Shown one piece after another: positions 9,501 through 62,018 of a stretch of DNA of 64,000 nt. Numbering within the stretch: the stretch's first letter is position 1; every line of letters begins with the position of its first letter. Made by a program: the position numbers and the translations under genes. The notes below the pieces were generated by a model. The model had not been told where the DNA came from and made no database searches. It was given only the letters and a program-made list of their open reading frames with translations. The DNA comes from Nemertoderma westbladi. Taxonomy: Eukaryota > Animalia > Xenacoelomorpha. Location of the stretch: positions 62,001 to 126,000 of the forward strand of contig JAUCBJ010006956.1 in assembly GCA_032718475.1 (NCBI GenBank), read 5' to 3'.

Positions 9501-12500
9501 TTATCCTGTCACTCACTCCTCACCTTCCGTTTCGGTTTGGTTTTTGTCCGAGTGTGCCTTATCCTGTCACTAACTCCTTACCTTCCGTTTCGGTTTGGTT
9601 TCTGTCCGAGTGTGCCCTATCCTGTCACTCACTCCTTACCTTCCGTTTCGGTTTGGTTTCTGTCCGAGTGTGCCTTATCCTGTCACTCACTCCTTACCTT
9701 CCGTTTCGGTTTGGTTTCTGTCCGAGTGTGCCTTATCCTGTCACTCACTCCTCACCTTCCGTTTCGGTTTGGTTTTTGTCCGAGTGTGCCTTATCCTGTC
9801 ACTAACTCCTTACCTTCCGTTTCGGTTTGGTTTCTGTCCGAGTGTGCCTTATCCTGTCACTCACTCCTTACCTTCCGTTTCGGTTTGGTTTCTGTCCGAG
9901 TGTGCCCTATCCTGTCACTCACTCCTTACCTTCCGTTTCGGTTTGGTTTCTGTCCGAGTGTGCCTTATCCTGTCACTCACTCCTTACCTTCCGTTTCGGT
10001 TTGGTTTCTGTCCGAGTGTGCCTTATCCTGTCACTCACTCCTTACCTTCCGTTTCGGTTTGGTTTCTGTCCGAGTGTGCCTTATCCTGTCACTCACTCCT
10101 TACCTTCCGTTTCGGTTTCTGTCCGAGTGTGCCATATCCTGTCACTCACTCCTTACCTTCCGTTTCGGTTTGGTTTCTGTCCGAGTGTGCCTTATCCTGT
10201 CACTCACTCCTTACCTTCCGTTTCGGTTTGGTTTCTGTCCGAGTGTGCCTTATCCTGTCACTCACTCCTTACCTTCCGTTTCGGTTTGGTTTCTGTCCGA
10301 GTGTGCCTTATCCTGTCACTCACTCCTTACCTTCCGTTTCGGTTTGGTTTCTGTCCGAGTGTGCCTTATCCTGTCACTCACTCCTTACCTTCCGTTTCGG
10401 TTTGGTTTCTGTCCGAGTGTGCCTTATCCTGTCACTCACTCCTTACCTTCCGTTTCGGTTTGGTTTCTGTCCGAGTGTGCCTTATCCTGTCACTCACTCC
10501 TTACCTTCCGTTTCGGTTTGGTTTCTGTCCGAGTGTGACTTATCCTGTCACTCACTCCTTACCTTCCGTTTCGGTTTGGTTTCTGTCCGAGTGTGCCTTA
10601 TCCTGTCACTCACTCCTTACCTTCCGTTTCGGTTTGGTTTCTGTCCAAGTGTGCCTTATCCTGTCACTCACTCCTTACCTTCCGTTTCGGTTTGGTTTCT
10701 GTCCGAGTGTGCCTTATCCTGTCACTCATTCCTTACCTTCCGTTTCGGTTTGGTTTCTGTCCGAGTGTGCCTTATCCTGGCACTCACTCCTTACCTTCCG
10801 TTTCGGTTTGGTTTCTGTCCGAGTGTGCCTTATCCTGGCACTCACTCCTTACCTTCCGTTTCGGTTTGGTTTCTGTCCGAGTGTGCCTTATCCTGTCACT
10901 CACTCCTTACCTTCCGTTTCGGTTTGGTTTCTGTCCGAGTGTGCCTTATCCTGTCACTCACTCCTTACCTTCCGTTTCGGTTTGGTTTTTGTCCGAGTGT
11001 GCATTCCCCTTCCACTCCCTCCACTGCGTTTTCTCGCATGGCCTTTCCCCTTTCCATCCTTATCGGTATCATCATCATCTTCGTCACGTTTCCGTAAAAG
11101 TTCAATAACCTCGTAGCGAAACGCCGAAATATCCTGAATAAAAGAAACGAAAGACGAACAAATTAACGTAATACGGGAAAACTTATTGGTTAATCAAATC
11201 GTTATTATCAAAAAATCCAGATTACGTAATATTAATTGCGAAAATTATTTCGTTAATTACAGCTAATACGCTACAATTATATAAAGTGCTAGTTTAAACG
11301 ATGTGAAGAAAATATAATTATTACACCGGTAAAAAGTATGCAATATTTTGTAAAATTTGAAGATATTATGACATCGATAAATTATATTATTACTTTCATC
11401 TCCATAGTCCAGCCCTTGAGCATGATTGGATTTAACGGTCAGGATAAATAAATGTATTAATATTATTTTGAGTACCTCAACACAGTCACTATAGTAACGG
11501 TTCTTCTACATAAATAACCTGTTTAATCTCATTGAGGTCGTCCTCTGTAACTGGTTTAATATCAGCACTCCGCTTCATGCTAGCTATGTAACGCTTCACT
11601 AAGTTACGGATCACTTCCTGTTAGTCGGGTTATTGTAAGAGAAATAAAGGGTTAATTATTGAATTTATAAGGGGATGAGATTGGTTAGTAAGGTAGTAAA
11701 GTGTTAATTGTAAAGGTCATTATGGTTAATAATTAAACCTCTATTTTGGGTACAAGTTAGTTATTATGTTAGATTATTTTATTAAGTGTTAATCGAAATA
11801 TTAGGTGGTTTCAATTAATCAGAAATAAATAATAAAACTTCCTCCAATGCTAGGTGCTATGGAAGTAGAAAGTGACAACTTGGAGTGAATTAAACTCATT
11901 TTTCCCGAACCTGTTTTATCTCGTTTAAATCGTCCTCTGTTACGGGATGAATATCGGCGTTTCGTTTTACCGAGATTATGTAACGCTTCACAATGTTGCT
12001 CATTACATCCTTGTTGTAATTAATTAGGTCATTAAATAAATAAAAATTGAATATTAATACGCAAAAATAATGCTATACGTAATGGCATTAAGTGATAACA
12101 AAAGTAATGTAATAATTATAACTATAGCGAATATTTATCTCTACTATACAATAGGTCCGTACCTGGTACTTTCTATCCGAATCTGCTAATTTCGTGGCGA
12201 GTTTCGTAATATTCCTTAGTCGATCTCCTTTCATTCCACCCGGAACCATGCGGAGGGCTACCCATTTACCGAAGTAGAAGAACGATTTGGGACTGGGGAT
12301 GATGTTAAATGGGGGTGGTAAGGTGGCCCCGTCGTCAAAGTAACTCATCCACAGACGAGAGCGAGCGAACTTCCATTCCACATCCGCGTGATCCTAAACA
12401 ACAACCTTATAATGACTTCCCCGTACACTGTACAGTAACTCTACCACGCTACAAAGTACAATAACTCCTCCAAGCTATACTCTACAGTGACTCTACCTTG

Positions 12501-15500
12501 CTACAAAGTACAATAACTCCTCCAAGCTATACTTTACTGTAACTCTACCTTGCTACAAAGTACAATAACTCCTCCAAGCTATACTCTACAGTAACTCTAC
12601 CTTGCTACAAAGTACAATAACTCCTCCAAGCTATACTCTACAACAACTCTACCTTGCTACAAAGTACAATAACTCATCCAAGCTATACTTTACTGTAACT
12701 CTACCTTGCTACAAAGTACAATAACTCCTCCAAGCTATACTCTACTGTAACTCTACCTTGCTACAAAGTACAATAACTCCTCCAAGCTATATTCTACAGT
12801 TACTCTACCTTGCTACAAAGTATAATAACTCCTCCAAGCTATACTTTACTGTAACTCTACCTTGCTACAAAGTACAATAACTCCTCCAAGCTATACTCTA
12901 CAGTAACTCTACCTTGCTACAAAGTACAATAACTCCTCCAAGCTATACTCTACTGTAACTCTACCTTGCTACAAAGTACAATAACTCCTCCAAGCTATAC
13001 TCTACAATAACTCTACCTTGCTACAAAGTACAATAACTCATCCAAGCTATACTTTACTGTAACTCTACCTTGCTACAAAGTACAATAACTCCTCCAAGCT
13101 ATACTCTACAATAACTCTACCTTGCTACACAGTCCAATAACTCCTCCAAGTTATACTCTAAGGTAACTCTACCTTGCTACAAAGTACAATAACTCATCCA
13201 AGTTATACTTTACTGTAACTCTACCTTGCTACAAAGTACAATAACTCCTCCAAGCTATATTCTACAGTAACTCTACCTTGCTACAAAGTACAATAACTCC
13301 TCCAAGCTATACTCTACAGTAACTCTACCTTGCTACAAAGTACAATAACTCCTCCAAGCTATACTCTACAATAACTCTACCTTGCTACAAAGTACAATAA
13401 CTCCTCCAAGCTATACTCTACTGTAACTCTACCTTGCTACAAAGTACAATAACTCCTCCAAGCTATACTCTACAATAACTCTACCTTGCTACAAAGTACA
13501 ATAACTCCTCCAAGCTATACTCTACAATAACTCTACCTTGCTACTAAGTACAATAACTCCTCCAAGCTATACTCTACAGTGACTCTACCTTGCTACAAAG
13601 TACAATAACTCATCCAAGCTATACTTTACTGTAACTCTACCTTTGCACAAAGTACAATAACTCATCCAAGCTATGCTTTACTGTAACTCTACCTTGCTAC
13701 AAAGTACAATAACTCCTCCAAGCTATACTCTACAATAACTCTACCTTGCTACACAGTACAATAACTCCTCCAAGTTATACTCTAAGGTAACTCTACCTTG
13801 CTACAAAGTACAATAACTCATCCAAGCTATACTTTACTGTAACTCTACCTTGCTACAAAGTACAATAACTCCTCCAAGCTATACTCTACAATAACTCTAC
13901 CTTGCTACACAGTACAATAACTCCTCCAAGCTATACTCTACTGTAACTCTACCTTGCTACAAAGTACAATAACTCCTCCAAGCTATACTCTACAATAACT
14001 CTACCTTGCTACACAGTACAATAACTCCCCCAAGCTATACTCTACAATAACTCTATACCTTGCTACAAAGTACAATAACTCCCCCAAGCTATACTCTACA
14101 ATAACTCTACCTTGCTACAAAGTACAATAACTCATCCAAGCTATACTTTACTGTAACTCTACCTTGCTACAAAGTACAATAACTCCTCCAAGCTATACTC
14201 TACAATGACTCTACCTTGCTACAAAGTACAATAACTCCTCCAAGCTATACTCTACAATAACTCTACCTTGCTACAAAGTACAATAACTCCTCCAAGCTAT
14301 ACTCTACAATAACTCTACCTTGCTACACCTTGCTACAAAGTACAATAACTCCTCCAAGCTATACTCTACAATAACTCTACCTTGCTACACCTTGCTACAA
14401 AGTACAATAACTCCTCCAAGCTATACTCTACAGTGACTCTACCTTGCTACAAAGTTCAATAACTCCTCCAAGCTATACTCTACAATAACTCTACCTTGCT
14501 ACACCTTGCTACAAAGTACAATAACTCCTCCAAGCTATACTCTACAGTGACTCTACCTTGCTACAAAGTACAATAACTCCTCCAAGCTATACTCTACAAT
14601 AACTCTACCTTGCTACACCTTGCTACAAAGTACAATAACTCCTCCAAGCTATACTCTACAGTGACTCTACCTTGCTACAAAGTACAATAACTCCTCCAAG
14701 CTATACTTTACTGTAACTCTACCTTGCTACAAAGTACAATAACTCTTCCAAGCTATACTCTACAATAACTCTACCTTGCTACAAAGTACAATAACTCACC
14801 CAAGCTATACTTTACTGTAACTCTACCTTGCTACAAAGTACAATAACTCCTCCAAGCTATACTCTACAATAACTCTACCTTGCTACAAAGTACAATAACT
14901 CCTCCAAGCTATACTCTACAATAACTCTACCTTGCTACAAAGTACAATAACTCATCCAAGCTATACTTTACTGTAACTCTACCTTGCTACAAAGTACAAT
15001 AACTCCTCCAAGCTATACTCTACAATAACTCTACCTTGCTACACAGTACAATAACTCATCCAAGCTATACTTTACTGTAACTCTACCTTGCTACAAAGTA
15101 CAATAACTCCTACAAGCTATACTTTACAATAACTCTACCTTGCTACAAAGTACAATAACTCCTCCAAGCTTTACTTTACTGTAACTCTACCTTGCTACAA
15201 AGTACAATAACTCCTCCAAGCTATACTCTACAGTAACTCTACTTTGCTACAAAGTACAATAACTCCTCCAAGCTATACTCTACAGTAACTCTACCTTGCT
15301 ACAAAGTACAATAACTCATCCAAGTTATACTCTACAATAACTCTACCTTGCTACACAGTACAATAACTCCTCCAAGTTATACTCTAAGGTAACTCTACCT
15401 TGCTACAAAGTACAATAACTCATCCAAGCTATACTTTACTGTAACTCTACCTTGCTACAAAGTACAATAACTCCTCCAAGCTATACTCTACAGTAACTCT

Positions 15501-18500
15501 ACCTTGCTACAAAGTGCAATAACTCCTCCAAGCTATACTCTACAGTAACTCTACCTTGCTACAAAGTACAATAACTCCTCCAAGCTATACTTTACTGTAA
15601 CTCTACCTTGCTACAAAGTAAAATAACTCCTCCAAGCTGTACTCTACAGTAACTCTACCTTGCTACAAAGTACAATAACTCCTCCAAGCTATACTTTACT
15701 GTAACTCTACCTTGCTACAAAGTACAATAACTCCTCCAAGCTATACTCTACAGTAACTCTACCTTGCTACAAAGTACAATAACTCATCCAAGCTATACTT
15801 TACTGTAACTCTACCTTGCTACAAAGTACAATAACTCATCCAAGCTATACTTTACTGTAACTCTACCTTGCTACAAAGTACAATAACTCCTCCAAGCTAT
15901 ACTCTACAGTGACTCTACCTTGCTACAAAGTACAATAACTCCTCCAAGCTATACTCTACAGTAACTCTACCTTGCTACAAAGTACAATAACTCCTCCAAG
16001 CTATCCTCTACAGTAACTCTACCTTGCTACAAAGTACAATAACTCATCCAAGTTATACTCTACAATAACTCTACCTTGCTACACAGTACAATAACTCCTC
16101 CAAGTTATACTCTAAGGTAACTCTACCTTGCTACAAAGTACAATAACTCATCCAAGCTATACTTTACTGTAAATCTACCTTGCTACAAAGTACAATAACT
16201 CCTCCAAGCTATACTCTACAGTAACCCTACCTTGCTACAAAGTGCAATAACTCCTCCAAGCTATACTCTACAGTAACTCTACCTTGCTACAAAGTACAAA
16301 AACTCCTCCAAGCTATATTTTACTGTAACTCTACCTTGCTACAAAGTACAATAACTCCTCCAAGCTATACTCTACAGTGACTCTACCTTGCTACAAAGTA
16401 CAATAACTCTTCCAAGCTATACTTTACTGTAACTCTACCTTGCTACAAAGTACAATAACTCCTCCAAGCTATACTCTACAGTAACTCTACCTTGCTACAA
16501 AGTACAATAACTCCTCCAAGCTATACTCTACAGTAACTCTACCTTGCTACAAAGTACAATAACTCCTCCAAGCTATACTTTACTGTAACTCTACCTTGCT
16601 ACAAAGTGCAATAACTCCTCCAAGCTATACTCTACAGTAACTCTACCTTGCTACAAAGTACAATAACTCCTCCAAGCTATACTTTACTGTAACTCTACCT
16701 TGCTACTAAGTACAATAACTCCTCCAAGCTATACTCTACAGTGACTCTACCTTGCTACAAAGTACAATAACTCTTCCAAGCTATACTTTACTGTAACTCT
16801 ACCTTGCTACAAAGTACAATAACTCCTCCAAGCTATACTCTACAGTAACTCTACCTTGCTACAAAGTACAATAACTCCTCCAAGCTATACTCTACAGTAA
16901 CTCTACCTTGCTACAAAGTACAATAACTCCTCCAAGCTATACTTTACTGTAACTCTACCTTGCTACAAAGTACAATAACTCCTCCAAGCTATCTAAACTA
17001 TACCGGGTACATGCCGTATTGGTTTGATTACCAATTATGTTGACACATTTCTTAATAGATTCCGTAAAGCTATTCTATGAGCAGGCTGCCGGGAAATAAA
17101 GCCGCTTGCTAGTACAATTATTTATCTTCCCATGGGATAAAGTCTAATATACAATACATACATAAAAATAATATTCCTAAAATACACTTTAAGAATTACT
17201 AAAATAATAACAATATTAATTATAAGTGTTTGCCACCCGGAATTTCAATACTAACATTAATCAAAACAACAACAGAAAGGGAGTTTAGGTCGTATGCCTA
17301 ATACTTACCATAAAGCATAATAGCTTACATTGTAAATAACATTAACTGAGCAACATATAATATGTAAACAACTAAATCTGCGAACAATAACATTTACCGC
17401 AAAATTAATTTCGATTCTGTTGAGAAGGCAAAAGAAATGTTTAAAAAAACACCCAACCATCATAATGTAATTACTTATTATTAGATATCTACCGATACAA
17501 TTAATTTATATTTATTAAATAAACAAACGTTTACAATTTTGCCACTTACCGATATATAAAAATATTTATACTACCGTGACGTAATACACCAACATACCAG
17601 GATATTTTGGTAAGAATTACTCATCATTGCAATAAGCATGTTGAGTAATACAATGATGGAGAATATATGGTAGGAGGCGTACATAGCACCCCCGAGGATC
17701 TCGTTGAAGTAGTGAGATTTGTAGTTTAATAGCTCCGCCTCGTCTTTGACGGAGAAGAACCTTATGACGTGGATGGAAACCAGTCCGTAGAGAGTCCAGT
17801 AGAGAGACCAGATAGTGCCCGGGAGACTGGAAGACAGACGGGGTATTAGAAAGATGTTGCAATCTGAGTTCGAACTATCTATAACCACATCCACGGAAGA
17901 AGTCAGGTTGAAGGGTGTTAGTTGGTGGAGAGATGAACGGAGGGTAGAACATCGTCAAAATGTCATCGGAGTTAGTTAGTATGTTAGTTATGTATTAATG
18001 GTAAATGGCAATGATTGTTATTGCAAACGATGGGTAAAATACTACCAGGCCTATATGAATAATTATGGTAAAATTGTGACGAAATATATTATTTAGGGCA
18101 AATGACAGAAACGATAAGATGCAACACAAGCAACATATATTATCGCATCTACAAAATAAGAAAGCACTCTACCGGCTACAAAATAAGCAAGCAATCTATC
18201 GGTTACAAAATAAGCAAGCAATCTACCGGCTACAAAATAAGCAAGCAATCTACCGGCTACAAAATAAAATATTGCAGTAAAATATTGTCCGCTGGGATAA
18301 AGGGCTTCACTTTACCACACAATAATCATCACTTCCTATTGGTTAAAATGTTCAAAACTTACTAACTGATAGAGCCTGTTGAATTGTACAAAAAAGTAAA
18401 AGCTGACAAAAATCGACTTATGAACTTATGATACTTAATCTACGATAAGTGCCTCAGGGAAGCCAATTAGCACATTTTACCTAATTAAGAATTTAAGAAC

Positions 18501-21500
18501 CGTTACCTTTTACCCGAAGTTTCACCCGCTAGCTGTAATACTGATGAACTTCCTTAGGTTGATTACTTCCCAGTCAGAACTCACCCCTATGTATCTGATA
18601 CCAATATATTTGGATAATTAGATGGTAGCAACCCTTAGAACGTTTTTGTGACTAACGATTTTATTGTTTTATAAATTTGTTCGGTTTCTTTCCTTTTGGG
18701 ATGACAGGTTCAACAATTTCGGAGGATATCGGTGCTCTACACATAGCAGCCACATCTAGAAATCGGCATACATGAAGAACTAACGATCAGTAACAAGAGA
18801 GAGTTCACAGCGGATTTTGACTCCAGTCACTTGCAAAAATACAATATTAAATACAAAATTAATTATCCCTTGCCCGGCCACTAAAAACCAGAACTGGGAG
18901 AGTCAATAAAAATGTATCTCTCTGCACAGGGGGAAATCGACGCAAATAACAGCTGATTACTCTATAAAATAAAAATATAACATGTTCTAGTGACTTTAGT
19001 TTATTGTTTTGGTTAGAATAACGCGACACAGTAACCTGCTTGGTGATTTAATATTGACACGAGATATTAATTTGCCGAGATTGAATTGAATGAGCCGCCC
19101 CCCCCCCCGCCCTTGGCTAAAAAAACAAATGACTGGAACCAACTGCATCGATGATATTCACCCAGAACTAACCAAAATATTTTCGTACGACAAATTCATC
19201 ATAGCAATGAGAGTGTTGAGTAGAACGACCACTGCCACTATATGGTATATGGCGAACATTCCGCCGCCCACGTACTCCGTGAACGAGTGTTTAGTCGACG
19301 AAAACTGGGCATCGGAAGTCGCTTCATCGATATTTTTCATGCCAATGTTGTGTAAGTCGGTTAGACCCATAGTTGCCCAATACAGGGACCATATAGACTC
19401 TGGTACACTGTGTAGAGTTAATACATACAGAGGGAAACAAGTAGCGTGCGTGTTAGTTAACGGTGTAACGGCGTTGTATTGTTAATTATAATCAATTTAT
19501 GTACCAGGAATTGAATTGGGAATTATTAGTTGTTAGTGAAGGGAAAAAATTATAGATGGTTAGTTTCATAAATAAATACTTAATATAGGAGTAAATTTTT
19601 ACAAATCGATGTCCTAAAAAAACTTCTGATTTGTTTGGCTTTTGTTAATGTTTAACGAATTGCATACGCAATTACATTACAACTACTTTGCCGAACTTAT
19701 AAAGTTTCAACGGATATAATATGTTTAACATTAATAAAACTTAATGCTAATGTACCGATTCAATTTTATTAAAAGTTATAATTTACATTACAACTACTTT
19801 GCCGAACTTATAAAGTTTCAACGGATATAATATGTTTAACATTAATAAAACTTAATGCTAATGTACCGATTCAATTTTATTAAAAGTTATAATTTACATT
19901 ACAACTACTTTGCCGAACTTATAAAGTTTCAACGGATATAATATGTTTAACATTAATAAAACTTAGTGCCAATGTACCGACTCAATTTTATTAAAAGTTA
20001 TAATTTTAGGTAATTCAATTGTAACCATTTACATAAAATGAATTAATTATCTTAACGTATCGTATAAGTAACATATATACTCAGTAAGATACTCTACTCA
20101 CGTTTCAAATATTCTGTTTTGTTCAATGCACGTAACCCCGCTACAAGTGACGTCATCTCCTGGGTTTGGATCTTCCTTCTCCACATATTCGGCAAAATAA
20201 AGCTGGTTCATCCCGCACGCGAAAGATAACAGAACCAAAAGAAATATGCACATAAACTTCATAATATCCTACAATTAAAAAAGTAGAAATGCAATTATTA
20301 AACATGATATGAAGCAAAATTGTAAAACACTGACTAATTCAATCACCAATTCTCGAAATAGTAAAACAAATGTATTCAACTTACCCAAAGATGAATCAAA
20401 CACAAACAAATCTAAACAAGTTACCTCTATAGTCACCCCGAGTTACCTGTACCAAATATTCTTCATTATTCTTGTTCTGAACTTAAAATTAACATTTCTG
20501 AACCAAAAATACTCAACTTTCCACTACCAAACATACTCAACTAACTTGTGCAAACAAACTCAACTTTCCACTACCAAACAAACTCAACTTGCATGTACCA
20601 AACATACTCAAAACTCAACTTGCCTGTACCAAACATACTCAAAACACAACTTGCCTGTACCAAACATACTCAACTTGCCTGTACCAAAAATTCTCAACAT
20701 TCCACTATTACTACCAAACAAACTCAACTTGCCCCTACCAAACATACTCAACTTGCCTGTACCAAAAATTCTCAACTTTCCACTACCAAACAAACTCAAC
20801 TTGCCTGTACCAAAAATACTCAGCTTTCCACTATCAAACAAACTCAACTTGCCTCTACCAAACAAACTCAACTTGCCACTACCAAACATACTCAACTTGC
20901 CTGTAACAAACATACTAAACTTGCCTGTACCAAACAAACTCAACGTGCCTGTACCCAACATACTCAACTTGCCTGTACCAAATATACTCAACTTGCCTGT
21001 ACCCAAAATACTCAATGTGCCACTACCAAACATACTCAACTTGCCCGTACCAAACATACTAAACTTGACTGTACCAAACAAACTCAACTTGCATGTATCA
21101 AACATACTAAACTTTCCTGTACTAAACATACTCAACTTGCCTGTACTAAACATACTCAACTTGCCTGTACCAAAAATACTCAATGTGCCACTACCAAACA
21201 TACTCAACTTGCCTGTACCAAACATACTCAACTTGCCACTACCAAATATACTCAACTTGCCTGTACCAAACATACTCAACTTGCCACTACCAAACATACT
21301 CAACTTGCGACTACCAAACATACTAAACTTGACTAAACATACTCAACTTGCCACTACCAAATATATTCAACTTGCCTCTACCAAACATACTCAACTTGCC
21401 ACTACCAAACATACTCAACTTGCCTGTACTAAACATACTCAACTTGCCTGTACCAAAAATACTCAATGTGCCACTACCAAACATACTCAACTTGCCTGTA

Positions 21501-24500: not shown

Positions 24501-27500
24501 CCACCGGGTATCTGCCGTCACCCCAACTCCATATGAACCTCACCACCGGGTATCTGCCGTCACCCCAACTCCCTATGAACCTCACCACCGGGTATCTGCC
24601 GTCACCCCAACTCCCTATGAACCTCACCACCGGGTATCTGCCGTCACCCCAACTCCCTATGAACCTCACCACCACCGGGTATCTGCCGTCACACCAACTC
24701 CCTATGAACCTCACCACCACCGGGTATCTGCCGTCATACCAACTCCCTATGAACCTCACCACCACCGGGTATCTGCCGTCACCCTAACTCCCTATGAACC
24801 TCACCACCGGGTATCTGCCGTCACCCCAACTCCATATGAACCTCACCACCGGGTATCTGCCGTCACCCCAACTCCCTATGAACCTCACCACCGGGTATCT
24901 GCCGTCACCCCAACTCCCTATGAACCTCACCACCACCGGGTATCTGCCGTCACCCCAACTCCATATGAACCTCACCACCGGGTATCTGCCGTCACCCCAA
25001 CTCCCTATGAACCTCACCACCACCGGGTATCTGCCGTCACACCAACTCCCTATGAACCTCACCACCACCGGGTATCTGCCGTCACCCTAACTCCCTATGA
25101 ACCTCACCACCGGGTATCTGCCGTCACCCCAACTCCATATGAACCTCACCACCGGGTATCTGCCGTCACCCCAACTCCCTATGAACCTCACCACCACCGG
25201 GTATCTGCCGTCACCCCAACTCCATATGAACCTCACCACCGGGTATCTGCCGTCACCCCAACTCCCTATGAACCTCACCACCACCGGGTATCTGCCGTCA
25301 CCCCAACTCCCTATGAACCTCACCACCACCGGGTATCTGCCGTCACCCCAACTCCATATGAACCTCACCACCACCGGGTATCTGCCGTCACCCCAACTCC
25401 CTATGAACCTCACCACCACCGGGTATCTGCCGTCACCCCAACTCCCTATGAACCTCACCACCGGGTATCTGCCGTCACCCCAACTCCCTATGAACCTCAC
25501 CACCACTGGGTATCTGCCGTCACCCCAACTCCCTATGAACCTCACCACCACCGGGTATCTACCGTCACCCCAACTCCCTATGAACCTCACCACCACCGGG
25601 TATCTGCCGTCACACCAACTCCATATGAACCTCACCACCACCGGGTATCTGCCGTCACCCCAACTCCCTATGAACCTCACCACCACCGGGTATCTGTCGT
25701 CACCCCAACTCCATATGAACCTCACCACCGGGTATCTGCCGTCACCCCAACTCCCTATGAACCTCACCACCACCGGGTATCTGCCGTCACCCCAACTCCC
25801 TATGAACCTCACCACCACCGGGTATCTACCGTCACCCCAACTCCCTATGAACCTCACCACCACCGGGTATCTGCCGTCACACCAACTCCATATGAACCTC
25901 ACCACCACCGGGTATCTGCCGTCACCCCAACTCCCTATGAACCTCACCACCACCGGGTATCTGCCGTCACCCCAACTCCCTATGAACCTCACCACCGGGT
26001 ATCTGCCGTCACACCAACTCCCTATGAACCTCACCACCACCGGGTATCTGCCGTCACACCAACTCCCTATGAACCTCACCACCACCGGGTATCTGTCGTC
26101 ACCCCAACTCCATATGAACCTCACCACCGGGTATCTGCCGTCACCCCAACTCCCTATGAACCTCACCACCACCGGGTATCTGCCGTCACACCAACTCCCT
26201 ATGAACCTCACCACCACCGGGTATCTGTCGTCACCCCAACTCCATATGAACCTCACCACCGGGTATCTGCCGTCACACCAACTCCCTATGAACCTCACCA
26301 CCACCGGGTATCTGCCGTCACCCCAACTCCCTATGAACCTCACCACCACCGGGTATCTGCCGTCACCCCAACTCCCTATGAACCTCACCACCGGGTATCT
26401 GCCGTCACCCCAACTCCCTATGAACCTCACCACCACCGGGTATCTGCCGTCACCCCAACTCCCTATGAACCTCACCACCGGGTATCTGCCGTCACCCCAA
26501 CTCCCTATGAACCTCACCACCGGGTATCTGCCGTCACCCCAACTCCCTATGAACCTCACCACCACCGGGTATCTGCCGTCACACCAACTCCCTATGAACC
26601 TCACCACCGGGTATCTGCCGTCACCCCAACTCCCTATGAACCTCACCACCACCGGGTATCTGCCGTCACACCAACTCCATATGAACCTCACCACCACCGG
26701 GTATCTGCCGTCACCCCAACTCCCTATGAACCTCACCACCACCGGGTATCTGTCGTCACCCCAACTCCATATGAACCTCACCACCGGGTATCTGCCGTCA
26801 CACCAACTCCCTATGAACCTCACCACCACCGGGTATCTGCCGTCACCCCAACTCCCTATGAACCTCACCACCACCGGGTATCTGCCGTCACCCCAACTCC
26901 CTATGAACCTCACCACCGGGTATCTGCCGTCACCCCAACTCCCTATGAACCTCACCACCACCGGGTATCTGCCGTCACCCCAACTCCCTATGAACCTCAC
27001 CACCGGGTATCTGCCGTCACCCCAACTCCCTATGAACCTCACCACCGGGTATCTGCCGTCACCCCAACTCCCTATGAACCTCACCACCACCGGGTATCTG
27101 CCGTCACCCCAACTCCCTATGAACCTCACCACCACCGGGTATCTGCCGTCACCCCAACTCCCTATGAACCTCACCACCGGGTATCTGCCGTCACCCCAAC
27201 TCCCTATGAACCTCACCACCGGGTATCTGCCGTCACCCCAACTCCCTATGAACCTCACCACCGGGTATCTGCCGTCACCCCAACTCCCTATGAACCTCAC
27301 CACCGGGTATCTGCCGTCACCCCAACTCCCTATGAACCTCACCACCACCGGGTATCTGCCGTCACCCCAACTCCATATGAACCTCACCACCGGGTATCTG
27401 CCGTCACCCCAACTCCCTATGAACCTCACCACCGGGTATCTGCCGTCACCCCAACTCCCTATGAACCTCACCACCACCGGGTATCTGCCGTCACACCAAC

Positions 27501-30500
27501 TCCCTATGAACCTCACCACCACCGGGTATCTGCCGTCACACCAACTCCCTATGAACCTCACCACCACCGGGTATCTGCCGTCACCCCAACTCCCTATGAA
27601 CCTCACCACCACCGGGTATCTACCGTCACCCCAACTCCCTATGAACCTCACCACCACCGGGTATCTGCCGTCACACCAACTCCATATGAACCTCACCACC
27701 ACCGGGTATCTGCCGTCACCCCAACTCCCTATGAACCTCACCACCACCGGGTATCTGTCGTCACCCCAACTCCATATGAACCTCACCATCGGGTATCTGC
27801 CGTCACCCCAACTCCCTATGAACCTCACCACCACCGGGTATCTGCCGTCACCCCAACTCCCTATAAACCTCACCACCACCGGGTATCTGCCGTCACACCA
27901 ACTCCATATGAACCTCACCACCACCGGGTATCTGCCGTCACCCCAACTCCCTATGAACCTCACCACCACCGGGTATCTGTCGTCACCCCAACTCCATATG
28001 AACCTCACCACCGGGTATCTGCCGTCACACCAACTCCCTATGAACCTCACCACCACCGGGTATCTGCCGTCACCCCAACTCCCTATGAACCTCACCACCA
28101 CCGGGTATCTGCCGTCACCCCAACTCCCTATGAACCTCACCACCGGGTATCTGCCGTCACCCCAACTCCCTATGAACCTCACCACCACCGGGTATCTGCC
28201 GTCACCCCAACTCCCTATGAACCTCACCACCACCGGGTATCTACCGTCACCCCAACTCCCTATGAACCTCACCACCGGGTATCTGTCGTCACCCCAACTC
28301 CATATGAACATCACCACCGGGTATCTGCCGTCACACCAACTCCCTATGAACCTCACCACCACCGGGTATCTGCCGTCACCCCAACTCCATATGAACCTCA
28401 CCACCACCGGGTATCTGCCGTCACCCCAACTCCCTATGAACCTCACCACCACCGGGTATCTGCCGTCACCCCAACTCCCTATGAACCTCACCACCACCGG
28501 GTATCTGCCGTCACCCCAACTCCATATGAACCTCACCACCACCGGGTATCTGCCGTCACCCCAACTCCCTATGAACCTCACCACCACCGGGTATCTGCCG
28601 TCACCCCAACTCCCTATGAACCTCACCACCGGGTATCTGCCGTCACCCCAACTCCCTATGAATCTCACCACCACCGGGTATCTGCCGTCACCCCAACTCC
28701 CTATGAACCTCACCACCACCGGGTATCTGCCGTCACCCCAACTCCCTATGAACCTCACCACCGGGTATCTGCCGTCACACCAACTCCCTATGAACCTCAC
28801 CACCACCGGGTATCTGCCGTCACCCCAACTCCATATGAACCTCACCACCACCGGGTATCTGCCGTCAAACCAACTCCCTATAAACCTCACCACACCACCG
28901 GGTATCTGCCGTCACCCCAACTCCCTATGAACCTCACCACCACCGGGTATCTGCCGTCACACCAACTCCCTATGAACCTCACCACCACCGGGTATCTGCC
29001 GTCACCCCAACTCCATATGAACCTCACCACCACCGGGTATCTGCCGTCAAACCAACTCCCTATAAACCTCACCACACCACCGGGTATCTGCCGTCACCCC
29101 AACTCCCTATGAACCTCACCACCACCGGGTATCTGCCGTCACCCCAACTCCCTATGAACCTCACCACCACCGGGTATCTGCCGTCAAACCAACTCCCTAT
29201 AAACCTCACCACACCACCGGGTATCTGCCGTCACCCCAACTCCCTATGAACCTCACCACCGGGTATCTGCCGTCAAACCAACTCCCTATAAACCTCACCA
29301 CACCACCGGGTATCTGCCGTCACCCCAACTCCCTATGAACCTCACCACCACCGGGTATCTGCCGTCACCCCAACTCCCTATGAACCTCACCACCACCGGG
29401 TATCTGCCGTCAAACCAACTCCCTATAAACCTCACCACACCACCGGGTATCTGCCGTCACCCCAACTCCCTATGAACCTCACCACCACCGGGTATCTGCC
29501 GTCAAACCAACTCCCTATAAACCTCACCACACCACCGGGTATCTGCCGTCACCCCAACTCCCTATGAACCTCACCACCGGGTATCTGCCGTCACACCAAC
29601 TCCCTATGAACCTCACCACCACCGGGTATCTGCCGTCACCCCAACTCCCTATGAACCTCACCACCACCGGGTATCTGCCGTCACCCCAACTCCCTATGAA
29701 CCTCACCACCACCGGGTATCTGCCGTCACCCCAACTCCATATGAACCTCACCACCACCGGGTATCTGCCGTCACCCCAACTCACCTGAACCATCCGGCCC
29801 AATGAAATCTGCAGTGGACCGAGATGTGCGCTGGCAATAAAAAGGAACAGAAGTCGCAGCATACTGAATATATTGGCCACGGCAAATAAACCGTCAGCGA
29901 TAATCAGAGGGTCGTCGCCGGACCAATACTTCCGCGGGAAATCGGGGTCGTGCCAACCCTACAAACGGTAAACCAAAACAGAAAGTAAATCGGGGTCGTG
30001 CCAACCCTACAAACAGTAAACCAAAACAGAAAGTAGATCGGGGTCGTGCCAACCTTATAAACGGTAAAGAAAAACAGAAGTAAATCGGGGTCGTGCCAAC
30101 CCTACAAACGGTAAACCAAAACAGAAAGTAAATCGGGGTCGTGCCAACCCTACAAACGGTAAACCAAAACAGAAAGTAAATCGGGGTCGTGCCAACCCTA
30201 CAAACGGTAAACCAAAACAGAAAGTAAATCGGGGTCGTGCCAACCCTACAAACGGTAAACCAAAACAGAAAGTAAATCGGGGTCGTGCCAACCCTACAAA
30301 CGGTAAACCAAAACAGAAAGTAAATCGGGGTCGTGCCAACCCTACAAACGGTAAACCAAAACAGAAAGTAAATCGGGGTCGTGCCAACCCTACAAACGGT
30401 AAACAAAAACAGAAAGTTAATCGGGGTCGTGCCAACCCTACAAACGGTAAACCAAAACAGAAAGTAAATCGGGGTCGTGCCAACCCTACAAACGGTAAAC

Positions 30501-33500
30501 AAAAACAGAAAGTAAATCGGGGTCGTGCCAACCCTACAAACGGTAAACAAAAACAGAAAGTTAATCGGGGTCGTGCCAACCCTACAAACGGTAAACAAAA
30601 ACAGAAAGTAAATCGGGGTCGTGCCAACCCTACAAACGGTAAACCAAAACAGAAAGTAAATCGGGGTCGTGCCAACCCTACAAACGGTAAACAAAAACAG
30701 AAAGTTAATCGGGGTCGTGCCAACCCTACAAACGGTAAACCAAAACAGAAAGTAAATCGGGGTCGTGCCAACCCTACAAACGGTAAACCAAAACAGAAAG
30801 TAAATCGGGGTCGTGCCAACCCTACAAACGGTAAACCAAAACAGAAAGTAAATCGGGGTCGTTCCAACCCTACAAACGGTAAACCAAAACAGAAAGTAAA
30901 TCGGGGTCGTGCCAACCCTACAAACGGTAAACCAAAACAGAAAGTAAATCGGGGTCGTGCCAACCCTACAAACGGTAAACCAAAACAGAAAGTAAATCGG
31001 GGTCGTGCCAACCCTACAAACGGTAAACCAAAACAGAAAGTAAATCGGGGTCGTGCCAACCCTACAAACGGTAAACAAAAACAGAAAGTAAATCGGGGTC
31101 GTGCCAACCCTACAAACGGTAAACAAAAACAGAAAGTAAATCGGGGTCGTGCCAACCCTACAAACGGTAAACAAAAACAGAAAGTAAATCGGGGTCGTGC
31201 CAACCCTACAAACGGTAAACAAAAACAGAAAGTAAATCGGGGTCGTGCCAACCCTACAAACGGTAAACAAAAACAGAAAGTAAATCGGGGTCGTGCCAAC
31301 CCTACAAACGGTAAACCAAAACAGAAAGTAAATCGGGGTCGTGCCAACCCTACAAACGGTAAACCAAAACAGAAAGTAAACAGTAAACATATAGATAGTT
31401 ACGGTAAACAAAGAGTAACTGTACCCTTGAAAAAGGTGAAATAAATGTAAGAAATTAATCAGGGTGGGTTAATAAAATAGCAAGAGACTTATCATGATGT
31501 ACATACATACATATGTACATATGAGTATAGTTTCTTCGTTTCTCGAAGGTCACGCGCGAAAATTGAACTTAGAAAATTTCTAGACTTGTTACGTTTAAAT
31601 ACGAATCTACAGATTTACAGACACAACGATCAATATAGTTGTACCCGTATTCTAAGCTTGCATACTGCCGTGGCTCGCCCCACATCAGCCACACCACACC
31701 TAATGCACCGGTTGGATCAGCCATGTAAATTCACAATTAATTTCCATTAAGAGATGTGCCCTTTATTAATCTTATAAGTATCTATATAGACCAATGTCTT
31801 TTAGCAGACCTTTCAGTAATGTAAATGGCTGACCGCCACTATTTCCTCTCGCAGCCGGTTCATAGATAAATAACACGCAGAGTCAGTTATATGATCAGTA
31901 ACACCGGAAGTCCAATTATGTAAATACAATTAATACATATTCCGCGGGTTACCGACGGTGAACCTACAAGTATGTCTCTACAATTCGGAAGGTTAAACCT
32001 TCCAATGTTTTGCCATATTCGGTACCGTTCCAAACAAAGTTTATTGCGTAGAATTGACACAACTTGCAATTCTATTTTACGTGAGATCTCGCGTATTTGT
32101 AGTATTAACTCAATATCACGTATTCTTTCTTAGGTATGATTTCAGTGACCTACTTACTCATACTCTGTGCTTGATTTGTTGTGTGCTTGTTTTACTCGTT
32201 TTTATGGGCTAAGGCCTGGATTAAAGGGAATAATAATAATAATAACATAAGAGTAGTGCCATGGTACTTACCTTGATGTAAACAATAGACCTTAGTGCTA
32301 TGGTGGCCAAATATAAGGAGTTCATGAAGAAATCTAAGAGATTCCACCAATCGGAAGTGTATTCTACAAATCCACTCTCCCAGACTTCTTTGATTTCCGA
32401 CCAAATCTTTCCTACAATATGTCACATAAACGGATAATAGAATACAGTAAATGGTATTATACAGCATATTGATAGTATATGTAACCTACAGCTACACGGG
32501 TAATACCATATTACTAATTAATAATTATTTACCATACGTGTTTAATATGGTAAACCTTTGAAATTATACAGGCTATATACTAAAACACATAACTTACAAT
32601 AGTATGCTCACATTTCCAAAAAATGTGTCTTTTTCTATATTATTCGAACTTCGCATTCTATTTATATGATGTGCACATACTGCATTTTCTTCTTCCACTT
32701 ACTTCATTCACGGTATAAATACCCTGTTTACTATATTTATTTATTTACTATTTATTTTTAGTCCAAATCCAAGTGAGGAAATCGAGCCATGCATCAAACT
32801 TAGGAATACTCAAATAATCACTAGAAGGAGACAAAGGTTAATCAGATTATTGGAGCGGGTTGCTTCTAGTGTTGGTCTTTTTGTTAAATCTTATAAAACT
32901 AAAATTTTGACAGTTTTAACTTCGACAGTTCGCAGGAAATGACTCATGATATGTTATGGGGCATATACACCAATGATGGTGTGCTTCGTGCTTGATCATG
33001 TTGATGACTTCTGCTGCTTGCGATCATGGATCCGGAAGTCCGGAAGTTCGACCTTCGAATGCGAATAGTCTGTCCAAGATTAAGTCACAAAATAGAACGG
33101 GTGAGGCGATGATAGTCTATGTGTACATTATATAAAATACTGTAGGATAGGTTTATTATGCCTAGGATATATTTTATAAACATTAAAAGTTTAACATGAA
33201 TAGAAAATAAAATGACACTCATTCATTCACACGAAATATTAACTAATTATGGAATCCATATAACTGGAACTTTAAACAATATTGGTTGCAGTGTGGGGTG
33301 TGGGAGGGGCGCGGAAGAAGAAAAATATCTATTCTAAACATATTTACTTAGATGTTAGTGCAAAGTTAAGTTAAAATTTAGTGTAAAGAAATAGAACAAA
33401 AGTGACAAGCAGTCACCGAAAGTAAACAGTTGCCAATTAAGTGCATAAAATCGAGTTCTCAGGTGAACATTTCAAAGGCATTCAAATGAACACGGAACAG

Positions 33501-36500
33501 AAACTAAGTGAACACGCAGTTCCGAGTGTCTAGGTTTCTTACCAATTACAAAACTCATAACAAAAAACTCCACGTAGGAAGGGAGAGTTTCGGCGTCGTG
33601 TTTGTCTCGATGCCCGAAGGTGGAGATAGTCGGGTCACTGGCCAATCCGAGACAGACGAGGAAAATAATGAACGCCGCATTGTGATTAACAAACTTAACA
33701 AAGGGACTCCGAAAAAACTCGCCCACCTAAATAGGAAACATTAAATTAATCTAGTGACGTTGTAACATAAGGATATAGTCTAGTAGACTTACCTATGACG
33801 AAAGATAACATAAACCATTCGAGAGGGTGTGGTCTGACGTAGCCGTGGTAACTTTGTCCGAAGGTGGATGATGTAGAGCTGCCAGTCACCAATACACACG
33901 TCAAAAAGATAAAGAAGCAGGCGTTGTGATTGAGAAATTTTACGAAGGGGCCGGTGAGAAAAACTCCTAACTGAAAGACATTGGGATTATGTTATTGTAT
34001 ATGTAGGACTAACTACAAGGACGCCTCATGGGTTTTAACAATGTCATGATCCTCGTGTGTATCTCCGTTCTCGTTTATTTTATATCTTTGCACTCGTTTA
34101 CTTTATATCTTTGCACTCGTTTACTTTATATCTTTGCACTCGTTTACTTGGCATCTTTGCACTCGTTTACTTTATATCTTTACACTCGTTTACTTTATAT
34201 AATTGCACTCGTTTACTTTATATCTTTGCACTCGTTTACGTTATATCTTTGCACTCGTTTACTTTATATCTTTGCACTCGTTTACTTGGCATCTTTGCAC
34301 TCGTTTACTTTATATCTTTACACTCGTTTACTTTATATAATTGCACTCGTTTACTTTATATCTTTACACTCGTTTTCTTTATATAATTGCACTCGTTTAC
34401 TATATATTTTTGTACTCGTTAAACATACCACTGGTGCTTACGCACTCGGTCGGCACACTTTAAGGTGCTATTTTACAGTTGTACAAAAGTATGTAAATAG
34501 TATAACATCACATTATATACTACATTTAGTTACCATGGTTTTCGGGGCTGCAAGGTACATAATCGCCGTAAAGGGGAGGGAACATAAACAAGCGAAAAGA
34601 ATTCCGAGTTTCATTGGTCCGTTTCCTCGTCTCCACCCGGGCATCCCCTCGTACCAAATACTGGCCAACAATTGCTGACAATTTGGATGAGCCACAAACT
34701 AAAAACATAACAGCAACGGATTAGATACATACAAATATTCAAATTAGATATTCTGGCGCCTAGAAGGATAATTGAGAAGTTATTAACAAATAAACACAGA
34801 CGTCTGGTTATTATCTTTGTTGACTTTATTAAACCCTTCGACTCATTCTCCCGACCATGTATAACATAATTGCAGCATTTGGGATTCCTAAGAAAATTAT
34901 AGCAGCTATCAGATCACTATACGATGGTTCCACCACATTTGTGTCTACTGCTGATGGTGACACAGATCCATTCGAAGTCTTATGAGGAATCCTTCAGGGT
35001 GACGCACTTGCACCATTCTTATTCTTAATTGTGGTTGATTATGTTCTACACATGTCCGTAGACCATCATAATAAACAAAACGTACCGCACGTTACGCAAA
35101 ACGTAACATAAGCTTAATGGATCAGATTGCTTCTAGTGTTGGTCTTTTTGTAAACTCCAAGAAGACCAAAATTATGACAGTCTTGACAGCCCTCCAGAAA
35201 TGTCTGATCGTAAGAGCATAATTTACAGGGATGACTTGCTTGAGCACGTGGATGACTTCTGCTACTTGGGATCATGGATCAGAAAGTCAGATGAAGAGAT
35301 TCGGATATGTAAGGGGAAGGCATGGGCTAGGCAGCGTTAGATAGTCTGTCCAGGATTTGGAAGTCGCATAGAATAAAACAGAATCTTAAGGTTCAATTAT
35401 TAAGGGCAGCAGTAGTACCAGTTCTCTTATGAGAGTCCATGCTGGGCTCTAACTGCAGAGGATACCAAATCTCTGGATGGCACTTTCACAAGCATGCTGG
35501 GCCAGGTTCATTGTATCAAGAACAATGAATACATCTCCAATCAGACACTATATACAACATTTGAGGTCCGCCTCCGCTTTGTAGGACATTTCTTTCGCCG
35601 CGAGGACCAGCCAGTGCATAATCTAGTGCTTTGGTGGCCTCATGAAGTGAATAAGCATGGTGGACATCACACGACTTTCTTGAGACACATCTTAAAGGAC
35701 ACTGGCCTAGAAGATGCGGATGATCTAACAAATATCATGGGTGATAGGGAATTGTGGTGGCGCATATTGTCGACAAACCGGCCGGACATTATTAATATAT
35801 ATGTAATGTATATAATGTATAGCTGCAATGCAGCATGCCGATATAGTTTAGTAGTAATTGCAGCTTTTTTCCAAGGATACTTCTTGATTACAAACAATAC
35901 AGTGTTACACACTAGTGGCGACATTCCTGGGTTTCCAATTAGGAAGCCCTGGTTCGATTCCTAGATGGGGTAGCACTGTTTGGGCACAGTGCTTTAAATG
36001 CTGCAGCCTAGCTCAACACATCCTTCATACTTTCATCCTTCAGTGCTCGATAAATGGGAATCAAGGCAACTTGGGAAATAGAGTGGAAGGGTTTACTGTG
36101 GAAGATCACCCGTGGTGGTGAACAGAGGCATTCCTAGGCTTAACGAGCCTAAAAGATTCTCCCATTAATTATAATAAAAATTATTAAATAAAATGCTAAA
36201 TGGAGTAGAATGATGAACAAGCTCTATTGATTTATATTAAACGTTTTACGTTTTTATAACCTAAAGATTTCAGGGTAGACCAAAGTTTTTTTTGAGGTGT
36301 CTCCTTTTAACTTATTTTATATATAAATCATAATAAGCTTTATTAACTTATCTTTGGACCAGGGTTCTAGACCTGCAGTAATTATTATAATCAGATAAAA
36401 CGCAAAAAGTTATTCCCTTTTTTCCCATGTAATACGTAATTTTATTCTTAAATTAGTACTTCTTTGTTGCTAAATTTTTTAATAAAAGAAAGAGCGATTA

Positions 36501-37687: not shown

Positions 37688-37887
37688 CTGAAAAAGGAAC
37701 AAATCAGATATAATACTCGTTGGAGGAAATAAATTAAAAAGTAAACCGAAGAAGCTTTTTAAAGGCCAAATAATTATTGTATTTATTTCAAAATCATTAA
37801 GACGTGTGTGAAATCGAAGCATAAATCCCCCCCCCCCCCCATATTAAATAGCCTGTGAGATGAGCTCCAACATGAAATATAGAAGGA

Positions 37888-40800: not shown

Positions 40801-42420
40801 TCACATTGAATCCCATATCCGCCTTCTTACCACCCTACTCACATTGAATCCCATATCCGCCTTCTTACCACCCCATTCACATTGAATCCCATATCCGCCT
40901 TCTTACCACCCTACTCACATTGAATCCCATATCAGCCTTCTTGCCACCCTACTCACATTGAATCCCATATCCGCCTTCTTACCACCCTACTCACATTGAA
41001 TCCCATATCAGCCTTGTTGCCACCCTACTCACATTGAATCCCATATCCGCCTTCTTACCACCCTACTCACATTGAATCCCATATCAGCCTTCTTGCCACC
41101 CTACTCACATTGAATCCCATATCCGCCTTCTTACCACCCTACTCACATTGAATCCCATATCCGCCTTCTTGCCGCCCCACTCACATTGCATCCCATATCC
41201 ACCTTCTTACCACCCTACTCACATTGAATCCCATATCCGCCTTCTTACCACCCTACTCACATTGAATCCCATATCAGCCTTCTTGCCGCCCCACTCACAT
41301 TGCATCCCATATCCACCTTCTTACCATCCTACTCACATTGAATCCCATATCCGCCTTCTTACCACCCTACTCACATTGAATCCCATATCAGCCTTCTTGC
41401 CGCCCCACTCACATTGCATCCCATATCCACCTTCTTACCACCCTACTCACATTGAATCCCATATCCGCCTTCTTACCACCCTACTCACATTGAATCCCAT
41501 ATCAGCCTTCTTACCACCCCATTCACATTGAATCCCATATCCGCCTTCTTACCACCCTACTCACATTGAATCCCATATCCGCCTTCTTGCCGCCCCACTC
41601 ACATTGCATCCCATATCCACCTTCTTACCACCCTACTCACATTGAATCCCATATCCGCCTTCTTACCACCCTACTCACATTGAATCCCATATCAGCCTTC
41701 TTGCCACCCTACTCACATTGCATCCCATATCCACCTTCTTACCATCCTACTCACATTGAATCCCATATCCGCCTTCTTACCACCCTACTCACATTGAATC
41801 CCATATCAGCCTTCTTGCCACCCTACTCACATTGAATCCCATATCCGCCTTCTTGCCGCCCCACTCACATTGCATCCCATATCCACCTTCTTACCACCCT
41901 ACTCACATTGAATCCCATATCCGCCTTCTTGCCGCCCCATTCACATTGAATCCCATATCCGCCTTCTTGCCGCCCTACTCACATTGAATCCCATATCCGC
42001 CTTCTTGCCGCCCTACTCACATTGAATCCCATATCCGCCTTCTTACCACCCTACTCACATTGAATCCCATATCCGCCTTCTTGCCGCCCTACTCACATTG
42101 AATCCCATATCCGCCTTCTTACCACCCTACTCACATTGAATCCCATATCAGCCTTCTTGCCACCCTACTCACATTGAATCCCATATCCGCCTTCTTGCCG
42201 CCCCACTCACATTGCATCCCATATCCACCTTCTTACCACCCTACTCACATTGAATCCCATATCCGCCTTCTTGCCGCCCTACTCACATTGAATCCTATAT
42301 CCGCCTTCTTACCACCCTACTCACATTGAATCCCATATCCGCCTTCTTGCCGCCCTACTCACATTGAATCCCATATCCGCCTTCTTGCCGCCCCACTCAC
42401 ATTGATTCCCATATCCGCCA
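37888..42420. repeat. 38-bp minisatellite (about 119 copies) with one inverted unit
   Basis: Unit attgaatcccatatccgccttcttgccgccc(c/t)actcac; inverted copy at 38009-38043. Confidence 0.95.
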
Positions 42421-60800: not shown

Positions 60801-60925
60801 CACTTAAAAACACAATATCGAAGTTTAAGATAAATGTAAGAGTTTTTTCATTATTCAATTTGTTCTTTATACCATCAACATTCCACCAAAGTATCCTAAT
60901 AAGATGATCTATACATGGCTGTCCT
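57853..60925 (-). CDS. LINE ORF2: AP endonuclease, reverse transcriptase and C-terminal zinc knuckle
   Basis: WWNVDG, FLSELK, GCYIPP, GGDFNSR, SNH; GPDGI, NYRGISL, FVDFKTAFD, GLRQG, LMDD, YVYLG; CACGELQSEEHILISC. The frame stays open upstream of the track's TTG start, back into the end of ORF1. Confidence 0.92.
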
Positions 60926-61856: not shown

Positions 61857-62018
61857 TGTCTTTTCCGTAATACGGTATAATTATTAATTATTGCATATAT
61901 TTCAGAATTTATCCGGTATTAACAAAGTCAGGCAGTCCAGTGCAGTATTTGTCTGAAACAGCAAATTCACAGCTATAGTAGCACCAGGTGCTGTAGGCCT
62001 ACTAATAATAATTAAGAA

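What the first reader, a model, noticed from the sequence alone, without database searches (positions are those of the whole stretch)
11519..33970. One TRPC gene with three pairs of duplicated, probably mutually exclusive exons (S1, pore/S6, coiled coil)
Seen in sequence: three independent tandem exon pairs (33793-33970/33543-33726; 19173-19407/17598-17826; 11911-12009/11519-11617). Each pair has matching phases, intact frames, GT-AG sites and conserved TRPC motifs despite strong divergence, so both copies look selected. In the S1 and pore pairs, including both or neither shifts the frame, so only one-of-two is productive. Inference: up to 8 channel isoforms varying the sensor domain, pore and tetramerisation helix, meaning paralogue-like diversity built by splicing within one locus. 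I do not recall this architecture in a TRPC gene, but novelty is unverified.
Basis: partly seen in the sequence, partly recalled or inferred. Interest (0 to 1): 0.88.

Follow-up and report, generated by a model that had tools for sequence, protein, structure and literature searches.

The report
TRPC channel with three swappable exons
An animal TRPC ion-channel gene carries two old, intact copies each of three exons (first membrane helix, pore and gate, cytoplasmic rib helix), so it likely makes up to eight channel versions by splicing in one copy of each, with the two pores predicted to differ in calcium flow.

Summary
Observation confirmed. One minus-strand TRPC gene (TRPC1/4/5/gamma type) has single-copy constitutive exons and exactly three tandem exon pairs: A (pre-S1/S1), B (pore helix, filter, S6) and C (rib helix). 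All 8 one-of-two paths are open; both or neither of A or B gives a stop, C does not. Synonymous sites between copies are near saturation while proteins stay 46/46/76% identical, so both copies were under selection. New here: ACTAAY clusters (Quaking/branch-point motif) sit directly upstream of B1, B2 and C2 only, and B1 has Asp where B2 has Ser at TRPC5 N584, a residue known to set calcium permeability. Correction: C differs in the rib helix, not the coiled coil. No RNA or close relative was available, so use of each copy is inferred. The pore-exon duplication recurs: 10 of 149 database hits hold two pore-exon copies, and this scan reported it before in octopus DNA. I found A and C pairs nowhere else. 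New variant of a known kind.

The parts
37550..37687 (-). Constitutive exon E1 (last ankyrin repeat); first TRPC exon found in the window
   Evidence: Ank E 3.9e-5
37222..37388 (-). Constitutive exon E2 (TRP_2 domain)
   Evidence: PF08344 E 4.5e-23
36680..36911 (-). Constitutive exon E3 (linker helices)
34534..34698 (-). Constitutive exon E4 (pre-S1 elbow)
33793..33970 (-). Alternative exon A1: pre-S1 helix, S1, S1-S2 loop, start of S2; the more derived copy
33727..33792 (-). 66-nt intron between A1 and A2; candidate branch A at 46-52 nt from the donor
33543..33726 (-). Alternative exon A2 (TRPC5 356-411)
32272..32411 (-). Constitutive exon E6 (rest of S2, S3)
29785..29958 (-). Constitutive exon E7 (S4, S4-S5 linker)
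20102..20268 (-). Constitutive exon E8 (S5, turret with two cysteines)
19452..19564 (-). Four ACTAAY motifs inside a 169-nt AG-free zone upstream of B1
19173..19407 (-). Alternative exon B1: pore helix, filter (TMGLTD, Asp at TRPC5 N584 position), S6, gate I-N-E
17917..17988 (-). Four ACTAAY motifs upstream of B2
17598..17826 (-). Alternative exon B2: pore helix, filter (LYGLVS, Ser at TRPC5 N584 position), S6, gate I-S-Q
12163..12393 (-). Constitutive exon E10 (TRP box and TRP helix)
11911..12009 (-). Alternative exon C1: inner rib helix and start of C-terminal helix; weak splice sites (AAG acceptor, GTTCGG donor); the more derived copy
11620..11761 (-). Three ACTAAY motifs upstream of C2 (119-nt AG-free zone)
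11519..11617 (-). Alternative exon C2 (TRPC4 708-741)
10969..11133 (-). Constitutive exon E12 (C-terminal coiled-coil helix)
7277..7291 (-). Predicted 15-nt micro-exon (QSIPS)
   Evidence: inferred from splice sites and frame
6794..6914 (-). Predicted 121-nt exon
4055..6582 (-). Predicted last coding exon: 841-residue low-complexity Lys/Asp/Glu-rich tail and stop
   Evidence: no Pfam match

Best explanation
This is one TRPC channel gene in which three exons were each duplicated in tandem long ago and both copies kept intact, and each mature message likely takes one copy of each pair, which would give up to eight subunit forms. Shown: the exons, their phases, the open paths, the stops when A or B is doubled or skipped, and purifying selection between copies. 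Inferred: A is kept one-of-two by frame plus, possibly, the 66-nt intron (branch point about 50 nt from the A1 donor); B by frame plus regulated acceptors; C has no frame check and must rely on splice regulation. The ACUAAY clusters before B1, B2 and C2 likely act as multiple branch points contested by SF1 and a Quaking-type repressor. Predicted effect: B1 (Asp after the filter glycine, net loop charge -3) passes more calcium than B2 (Ser, -1); A changes the S1 surface and outer loop; C changes packing of the rib helix next to the calmodulin site.
For: Gene model and frame test. Only A, B, C are doubled among 12 exon classes. pS/pN 0.84/0.37, 0.70/0.37, 0.70/0.19; pN >= pS in 0 of 5000 codon bootstraps for each pair, omega 95th percentile 0.23, 0.47, 0.27. 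Flanking introns of the copies do not align. Copies share 11-19 residues that differ from amphioxus and vertebrate TRPC4/5, so they arose within this lineage; B1+B2 group at 88/86. ACTAAY: 4, 4, 3 copies in 200 nt before B1, B2, C2 against 0-1 at the other 15 of 18 acceptors; of 2048 patterns tested 4 cluster at three or more acceptors and only ACTAAY is confined to alternative exons; 3 of 4 sense-strand clusters and 0 antisense; 0-1 before 17 of 17 single-copy B exons and 10 of 10 single-copy C exons of other animals. TRPC5 N584D is 2-fold more Ca-permeable than wild type (PMC7565274, passages); position mapped. QKI and SF1 compete for tandem ACUAA branch sites (PMC13004596, abstract).
Against: No transcript shows any junction. 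No close relative was found, so conservation of both copies across species is untested. A1 and C1 fit an outgroup profile worse than A2 and C2 (25.0 vs 50.8 and 37.6 vs 53.9 bits), and C1 has weak splice sites. dN/dS between copies cannot see a recent loss. C both/neither stays in frame. The ACTAAY motif was picked after viewing the sequence (controlled), and A1, A2 and C1 have none. The calcium prediction rests on one residue, in a pore loop 11-13 residues longer than that of TRPC5.
Confidence: 0.68

Rival explanations
1. At least one copy (most likely C1 or A1) was once used but is now a rarely or never spliced relic, so fewer than eight forms are made.
For: A1 and C1 are the more derived copies; C1 has an AAG acceptor without a pyrimidine tract and a GTTCGG donor; for C the changes against bird TRPC5 fall 6 to 0 on the C1 side. 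No RNA support.
Against: All six keep frame, length class and AG/GT ends. C1's changes are mostly conservative (D/E, M/I, I/L, V/M). A copy neutral for 0.4-1.0 substitutions per site would keep 42-16% identity against 76% seen for C. Chance of no stop after neutral drift of half dS is 0.03-0.07 for A and B, about 0.24 for C. B1 and B2 fit the outgroup profile equally (78 vs 80 bits).
Confidence: 0.15
2. A and B are mutually exclusive but C is a pair of independent cassette exons, so messages with both or neither copy are also made.
For: C1+C2 and no-C paths are open. The C1-C2 intron is 293 nt and its nearest ACTAAY is about 150 nt from the C1 donor, too far for the roughly 50-nt steric limit (PMC7969005, passages). 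No convincing docking/selector pairing.
Against: The two copies are equal-length homologues of one structural element; TRPC4 704-725 packs against the channel core (PMC7735759, passages), so doubling or deleting it is likely harmful (inference). The ACTAAY cluster and 119-nt AG-free zone mark C2 as regulated.
Confidence: 0.15
3. The pairs come from two interleaved genes or from merged haplotypes in the assembly.
For: Introns are filled with long minisatellites that are hard to assemble. Read depth could not be checked.
Against: 9 of 12 exon classes are single-copy; copies are only 46-76% identical as protein with near-saturated third positions and unrelated flanks, far beyond allelic divergence; the window has no N.
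Confidence: 0.02

Closest known systems
Limulus TRP cDNA variants (Bandyopadhyay and Payne 2004, PMID 15525336)
   Same: A TRPC with an alternative pore-domain segment of about 63 residues, the size of exon B in ordinary TRPCs (content recalled; only the title was seen, in the reference list of PMC4843991).
   Different: cDNA evidence exists there, none here. No S1 or rib-helix pair is recalled there. Homology of the two duplications is untested.
Tandem pore/S6 exons in other invertebrate TRPC genes
   Same: Two copies of the same pore-S6 segment in a row; in P0123-P0126 and P0149 the second copy starts after a Ser codon as B1 and B2 do.
   Different: Other TRPC subgroups; copies mostly group by gene in the exon tree, which points to separate duplications. 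These fragments do not show A or C.
NALCN exons 15a/15b and 31a/31b (Senatore et al. 2013, PMC3557258, passages)
   Same: Tandem mutually exclusive exons that swap a charged residue in a cation-channel filter in invertebrates.
   Different: Four-domain channel; conserved across phyla and confirmed by cDNA; one pair per gene.
TRPM3 alpha1/alpha2 pore splicing (PMC12799467, passages)
   Same: Splicing in the S5-S6 pore changes cation selectivity of a TRP channel.
   Different: Longer or shorter pore segment rather than a duplicated whole exon; TRPM family.
Bactrocera dorsalis TRPL exons 2/3 (PMC6137742, passages)
   Same: Mutually exclusive exons in a TRPC-family gene, shown by RT-PCR.
   Different: One pair near the 5' end, outside the membrane core.

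Membership tests
TRPC (canonical TRP) channels | Ankyrin repeats, TRP_2 domain, six membrane helices, LFW-type pore helix, TRP box, rib helix and C-terminal coiled coil in order | tested here: met
   colinear with TRPC5 137-792 at 48-49%; LYW for LFW; EWKFAR present. Only the last ankyrin repeat is in the window.
TRPC1/4/5/gamma subgroup | Closer to TRPC1/4/5/gamma than to TRPC3/6/7 | tested here: met
   Top solved-structure match was TRPC4/5 or TRP-gamma in 7 of 7 exon searches.
TRPC1/4/5/gamma subgroup | Orthology to chordate TRPC4/5 rather than TRP-gamma | tested here: inconclusive
   Sister to amphioxus plus vertebrate TRPC4/5 at 81/89 only, with no full-length TRP-gamma in the tree; TRP-gamma was top for C2 and E7.
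Mutually exclusive exons from tandem duplication | Neighbouring homologous exons of similar length and identical phase | tested here: met
Mutually exclusive exons from tandem duplication | Both copies under purifying selection | tested here: met
   pairwise only, cannot exclude recent loss.
Mutually exclusive exons from tandem duplication | A mechanism that bars both or neither | tested here: inconclusive
   Frameshift for A and B, none for C; A1-A2 branch distance 46-52 nt is borderline; no clear RNA pairing.
Mutually exclusive exons from tandem duplication | Transcripts carry exactly one copy and each copy is used | not testable with these tools
   No RNA run was available to lay on the gene.
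Quaking/SF1 branch-site-regulated exons | Tandem ACUAAY elements upstream of the alternative exon | tested here: met
   B1, B2, C2; absent at A1, A2, C1.
Quaking/SF1 branch-site-regulated exons | Binding and repression by a STAR protein | not testable with these tools
   Needs CLIP, knock-down or minigenes.

The most novel reading that the evidence does not exclude
One splicing factor of the Quaking type flips the pore and rib-helix choices together, so that a single TRPC gene builds a calcium-rich and a calcium-poor channel with matched sensor and regulatory parts in different cell types: a TRPC paralogue set made by splicing instead of gene duplication.
Probability: 0.25. Interest if true: 0.75.

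Novelty: new variant of a known kind. Interest (0 to 1): 0.52.

Why it matters
Vertebrates vary TRPC calcium permeability and regulation with seven genes. Here one gene appears to offer natural swaps of the pore, the S1 region and the rib helix on a fixed background, which makes their separate contributions directly testable. The Asp/Ser swap at a known calcium-permeability site gives a sharp prediction. The repeated, separate duplication of the same pore exon across invertebrate TRPCs suggests pore tuning by splicing is a general, under-described feature of the family.

Tried and rejected
No whole genome was held. RNA run search: no RNA holder listed; no reads were laid. Protein searches with B1 and with C2 plus flank gave 0 hits from 43 and 3 candidates; E10 gave 818 hits whose best 120 were vertebrate TRPC5 or unnamed fragments like it; no close relative turned up. 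ESM Atlas was uninformative (one weak Xenacoelomorpha label resting on 2 members is not used). 29 metagenome TRPC loci: 0 of 29 show a doubled A, B or C exon, but most are short and none is a close relative. Inverted-repeat search found only AT-rich, imperfect pairs, so no docking/selector model. TGCATG (RBFOX) occurs once in the gene: rejected as main regulator. The N-terminal ~135 residues were not found in the window. Excluded from the tandem-exon count: P0179 (longer duplicated block), P0122 and P0160 (minisatellite-like partial repeats). No fold or complex was predicted: single exons would be uninformative. The Limulus paper was not held. No supplements were opened; splice tables there could bear on novelty.
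Full report
Observation. I placed nine constitutive exons between 37687 and 10969 and joined all paths in a script. The 8 one-of-two paths are open (695-699 aa) and 48-49% identical to bird TRPC5 residues 137-792. Taking both or neither of A, or of B, gives an early stop; both or neither of C stays in frame. Profiles for 12 exon classes searched over all six frames find a second copy only for A, B and C and no third copy, which rules out two interleaved genes. The gene runs on through a predicted 15-nt micro-exon, a 121-nt exon and a long last exon to a stop at 4055. The first ~135 residues were not found in the window. No genome was held, so the animal is unidentified.

Age and selection. The copies are 46%, 46% and 76% identical as protein. 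Synonymous/non-synonymous difference is 0.84/0.37 (A), 0.70/0.37 (B) and 0.70/0.19 (C), and the flanking introns do not align. In 5000 codon bootstraps per pair pN never reached pS; the 95th percentile of omega was 0.23, 0.47 and 0.27. This excludes merged haplotypes and long-dead copies, but not a recent loss. The copies share 11-19 residues that differ from amphioxus and vertebrate TRPC4/5, so all three duplications happened within this lineage. Against my reading: A1 and C1 fit an outgroup-only profile worse than A2 and C2 (25.0 vs 50.8; 37.6 vs 53.9 bits), while B1 and B2 tie (78.3 vs 80.1), and C1 has weak splice sites.

What the exons encode. A matches TRPC5 356-411: pre-S1 helix, S1, outer loop and the start of S2 (helix names recalled). 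B matches TRPC4 about 564-628, which holds the filter glycine G577 and the gate I617/N621 (bioRxiv 10.1101/280503, passages). C matches TRPC4 708-741. There, residues 704-725 are the buried part of the rib helix, calmodulin binds 688-703 just upstream, and 727-731 link to the C-terminal helix (PMC7735759, passages). All 8 C1/C2 differences lie in the first 21 residues; the coiled-coil start is identical.

Predicted effect of the pore swap. With bird TRPC5 numbered F576...G581...N584, B1 has Asp and B2 Ser at 584, the outer loop carries 5 acidic/2 basic residues in B1 against 4/3 in B2, and the gate reads I-N-E against I-S-Q. TRPC5 N584D is about 2-fold more calcium-permeable than wild type and the matching TRPC3 E630 controls calcium permeability (PMC7565274, passages); Drosophila TRP D621 does too (PMC4164786, passages; that D621 is the same position is recalled). 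B1 is thus predicted to pass more calcium. This is inference from one residue in a longer loop.

How the choice may be made. For A, the intron is 66 nt and candidate branch adenines lie 46-52 nt from the A1 donor, at the ~50-nt steric limit (PMC7969005, passages); whether that limit holds in this animal is unknown. For B and C, I noticed ACTAAY clusters: 4, 4 and 3 copies within 200 nt upstream of B1, B2 and C2, with AG-free zones of 169 and 119 nt at B1 and C2, against 0-1 at the other 15 of 18 acceptors. Because I picked the motif after looking, I tested all 2048 patterns of the same form: 4 cluster at three or more acceptors, three are AT-only, and only ACTAAY is confined to alternative exons. 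Of 4 sense-strand clusters in the window 3 are these, the fourth lies in a tandem repeat, and the antisense strand has none. Single-copy B exons (17 of 17) and C exons (10 of 10) of other animals have 0-1. Tandem ACUAA sites are where Quaking competes with SF1 and represses exons in mammals (PMC13004596, abstract). This is non-coding evidence, independent of the reading frames, that these exons are regulated; the factor is inferred. What bars C1+C2 is unexplained; no RNA pairing stood out.

Family. The top solved-structure match was TRPC4/5 or TRP-gamma in 7 of 7 exon searches. An 11-row tree put the gene beside amphioxus and vertebrate TRPC4/5 at 81/89, without a full-length TRP-gamma. No close relative was found; the best full-length matches are 47-49% identical.

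Comparison and novelty. A B1+B2 profile against 1.84 billion representatives gave 1080 hits. Of the 149 newly listed, 10 hold two pore-S6 copies in a row (P0123-P0126, P0130, P0133, P0149, P0171, P0178, P0180), after dropping P0179, P0122 and P0160. Eight are unnamed; two are a moth and a spider model. In a 27-row exon tree B1+B2 group at 88/86 and the copies of P0123, P0126 and P0130/P0178 group by gene type; P0180's do not, and five copies and P0228 were left out because my pattern found no pore helix. So this exon has probably been duplicated several times. The scan reported three such exons in octopus DNA before, and a Limulus TRP variant with an alternative pore segment is in print (title seen; content recalled; paper not held). 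A doubled A or C exon was seen in 0 of 29 metagenome TRPC loci, most of them short and none a close relative. Literature searches for TRPC mutually exclusive or duplicated exons gave 28, 13, 0, an uninformative set, 8, 0 and 0 papers; I read passages of PMC6137742 (one 5' pair in TRPL), PMC7143563 (passages and section 12, no such pair in TRP-gamma), PMC13483504 (none in the passages seen) and PMC3557258 (NALCN filter exons). None describes three pairs in one TRPC gene; subscription journals and supplements were not seen.

Verdict. A real feature, a new variant of a known kind. Mutually exclusive exons in ion channels are well known and the pore pair recurs in TRPCs. Three selected pairs in one TRPC gene, a charge swap at a calcium-permeability site and a shared splice motif make it a good, testable case. 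Without RNA or relatives, use of every copy stays inferred. Interest 0.52.

Noticed in passing
window 29939-31380 and 9197-11002 (minus strand): Minisatellites built from exon edges: a 48-nt unit x30 holds 28 exact copies of the E7 acceptor plus the first bases of E7, each unit ending in an in-frame stop; a 58-nt unit x31 holds 28 copies of the E12 end and donor. The spliceosome must pick one true site among about 30 decoys; it also shows a high supply of tandem duplications at exon borders.
   Followed up: partly
window 12427-16992, 20498-29782, 37887-42419: Further intronic minisatellites of 4-5 kb each (periods 52, 24, 45, 38); the 45-nt array starts at the E7 donor.
   Followed up: no
window 42886-43918 and 54096-55128: 1033-bp direct repeat, 100% identical, flanking a 1657-codon frame at 46984-51954 with DUF1759; likely the LTRs of a very recent BEL/Pao-type retrotransposon (family name recalled).
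   Followed up: partly
window 57856-61880 (minus strand): LINE-like element with an open 318-codon frame and an open 1029-codon endonuclease/reverse-transcriptase frame.
   Followed up: no
window 4055-6582 (minus strand): The predicted TRPC tail is 841 residues, Lys/Asp/Glu-rich, with a 14-residue repeat (42-nt period at 4881-5075) and no Pfam match.
   Followed up: partly
protein P0122 (unnamed ENA record): A TRPC S6 exon end repeated about seven times inside a tandem array in another genome, the same exon-edge repeat habit as in this window.
   Followed up: no
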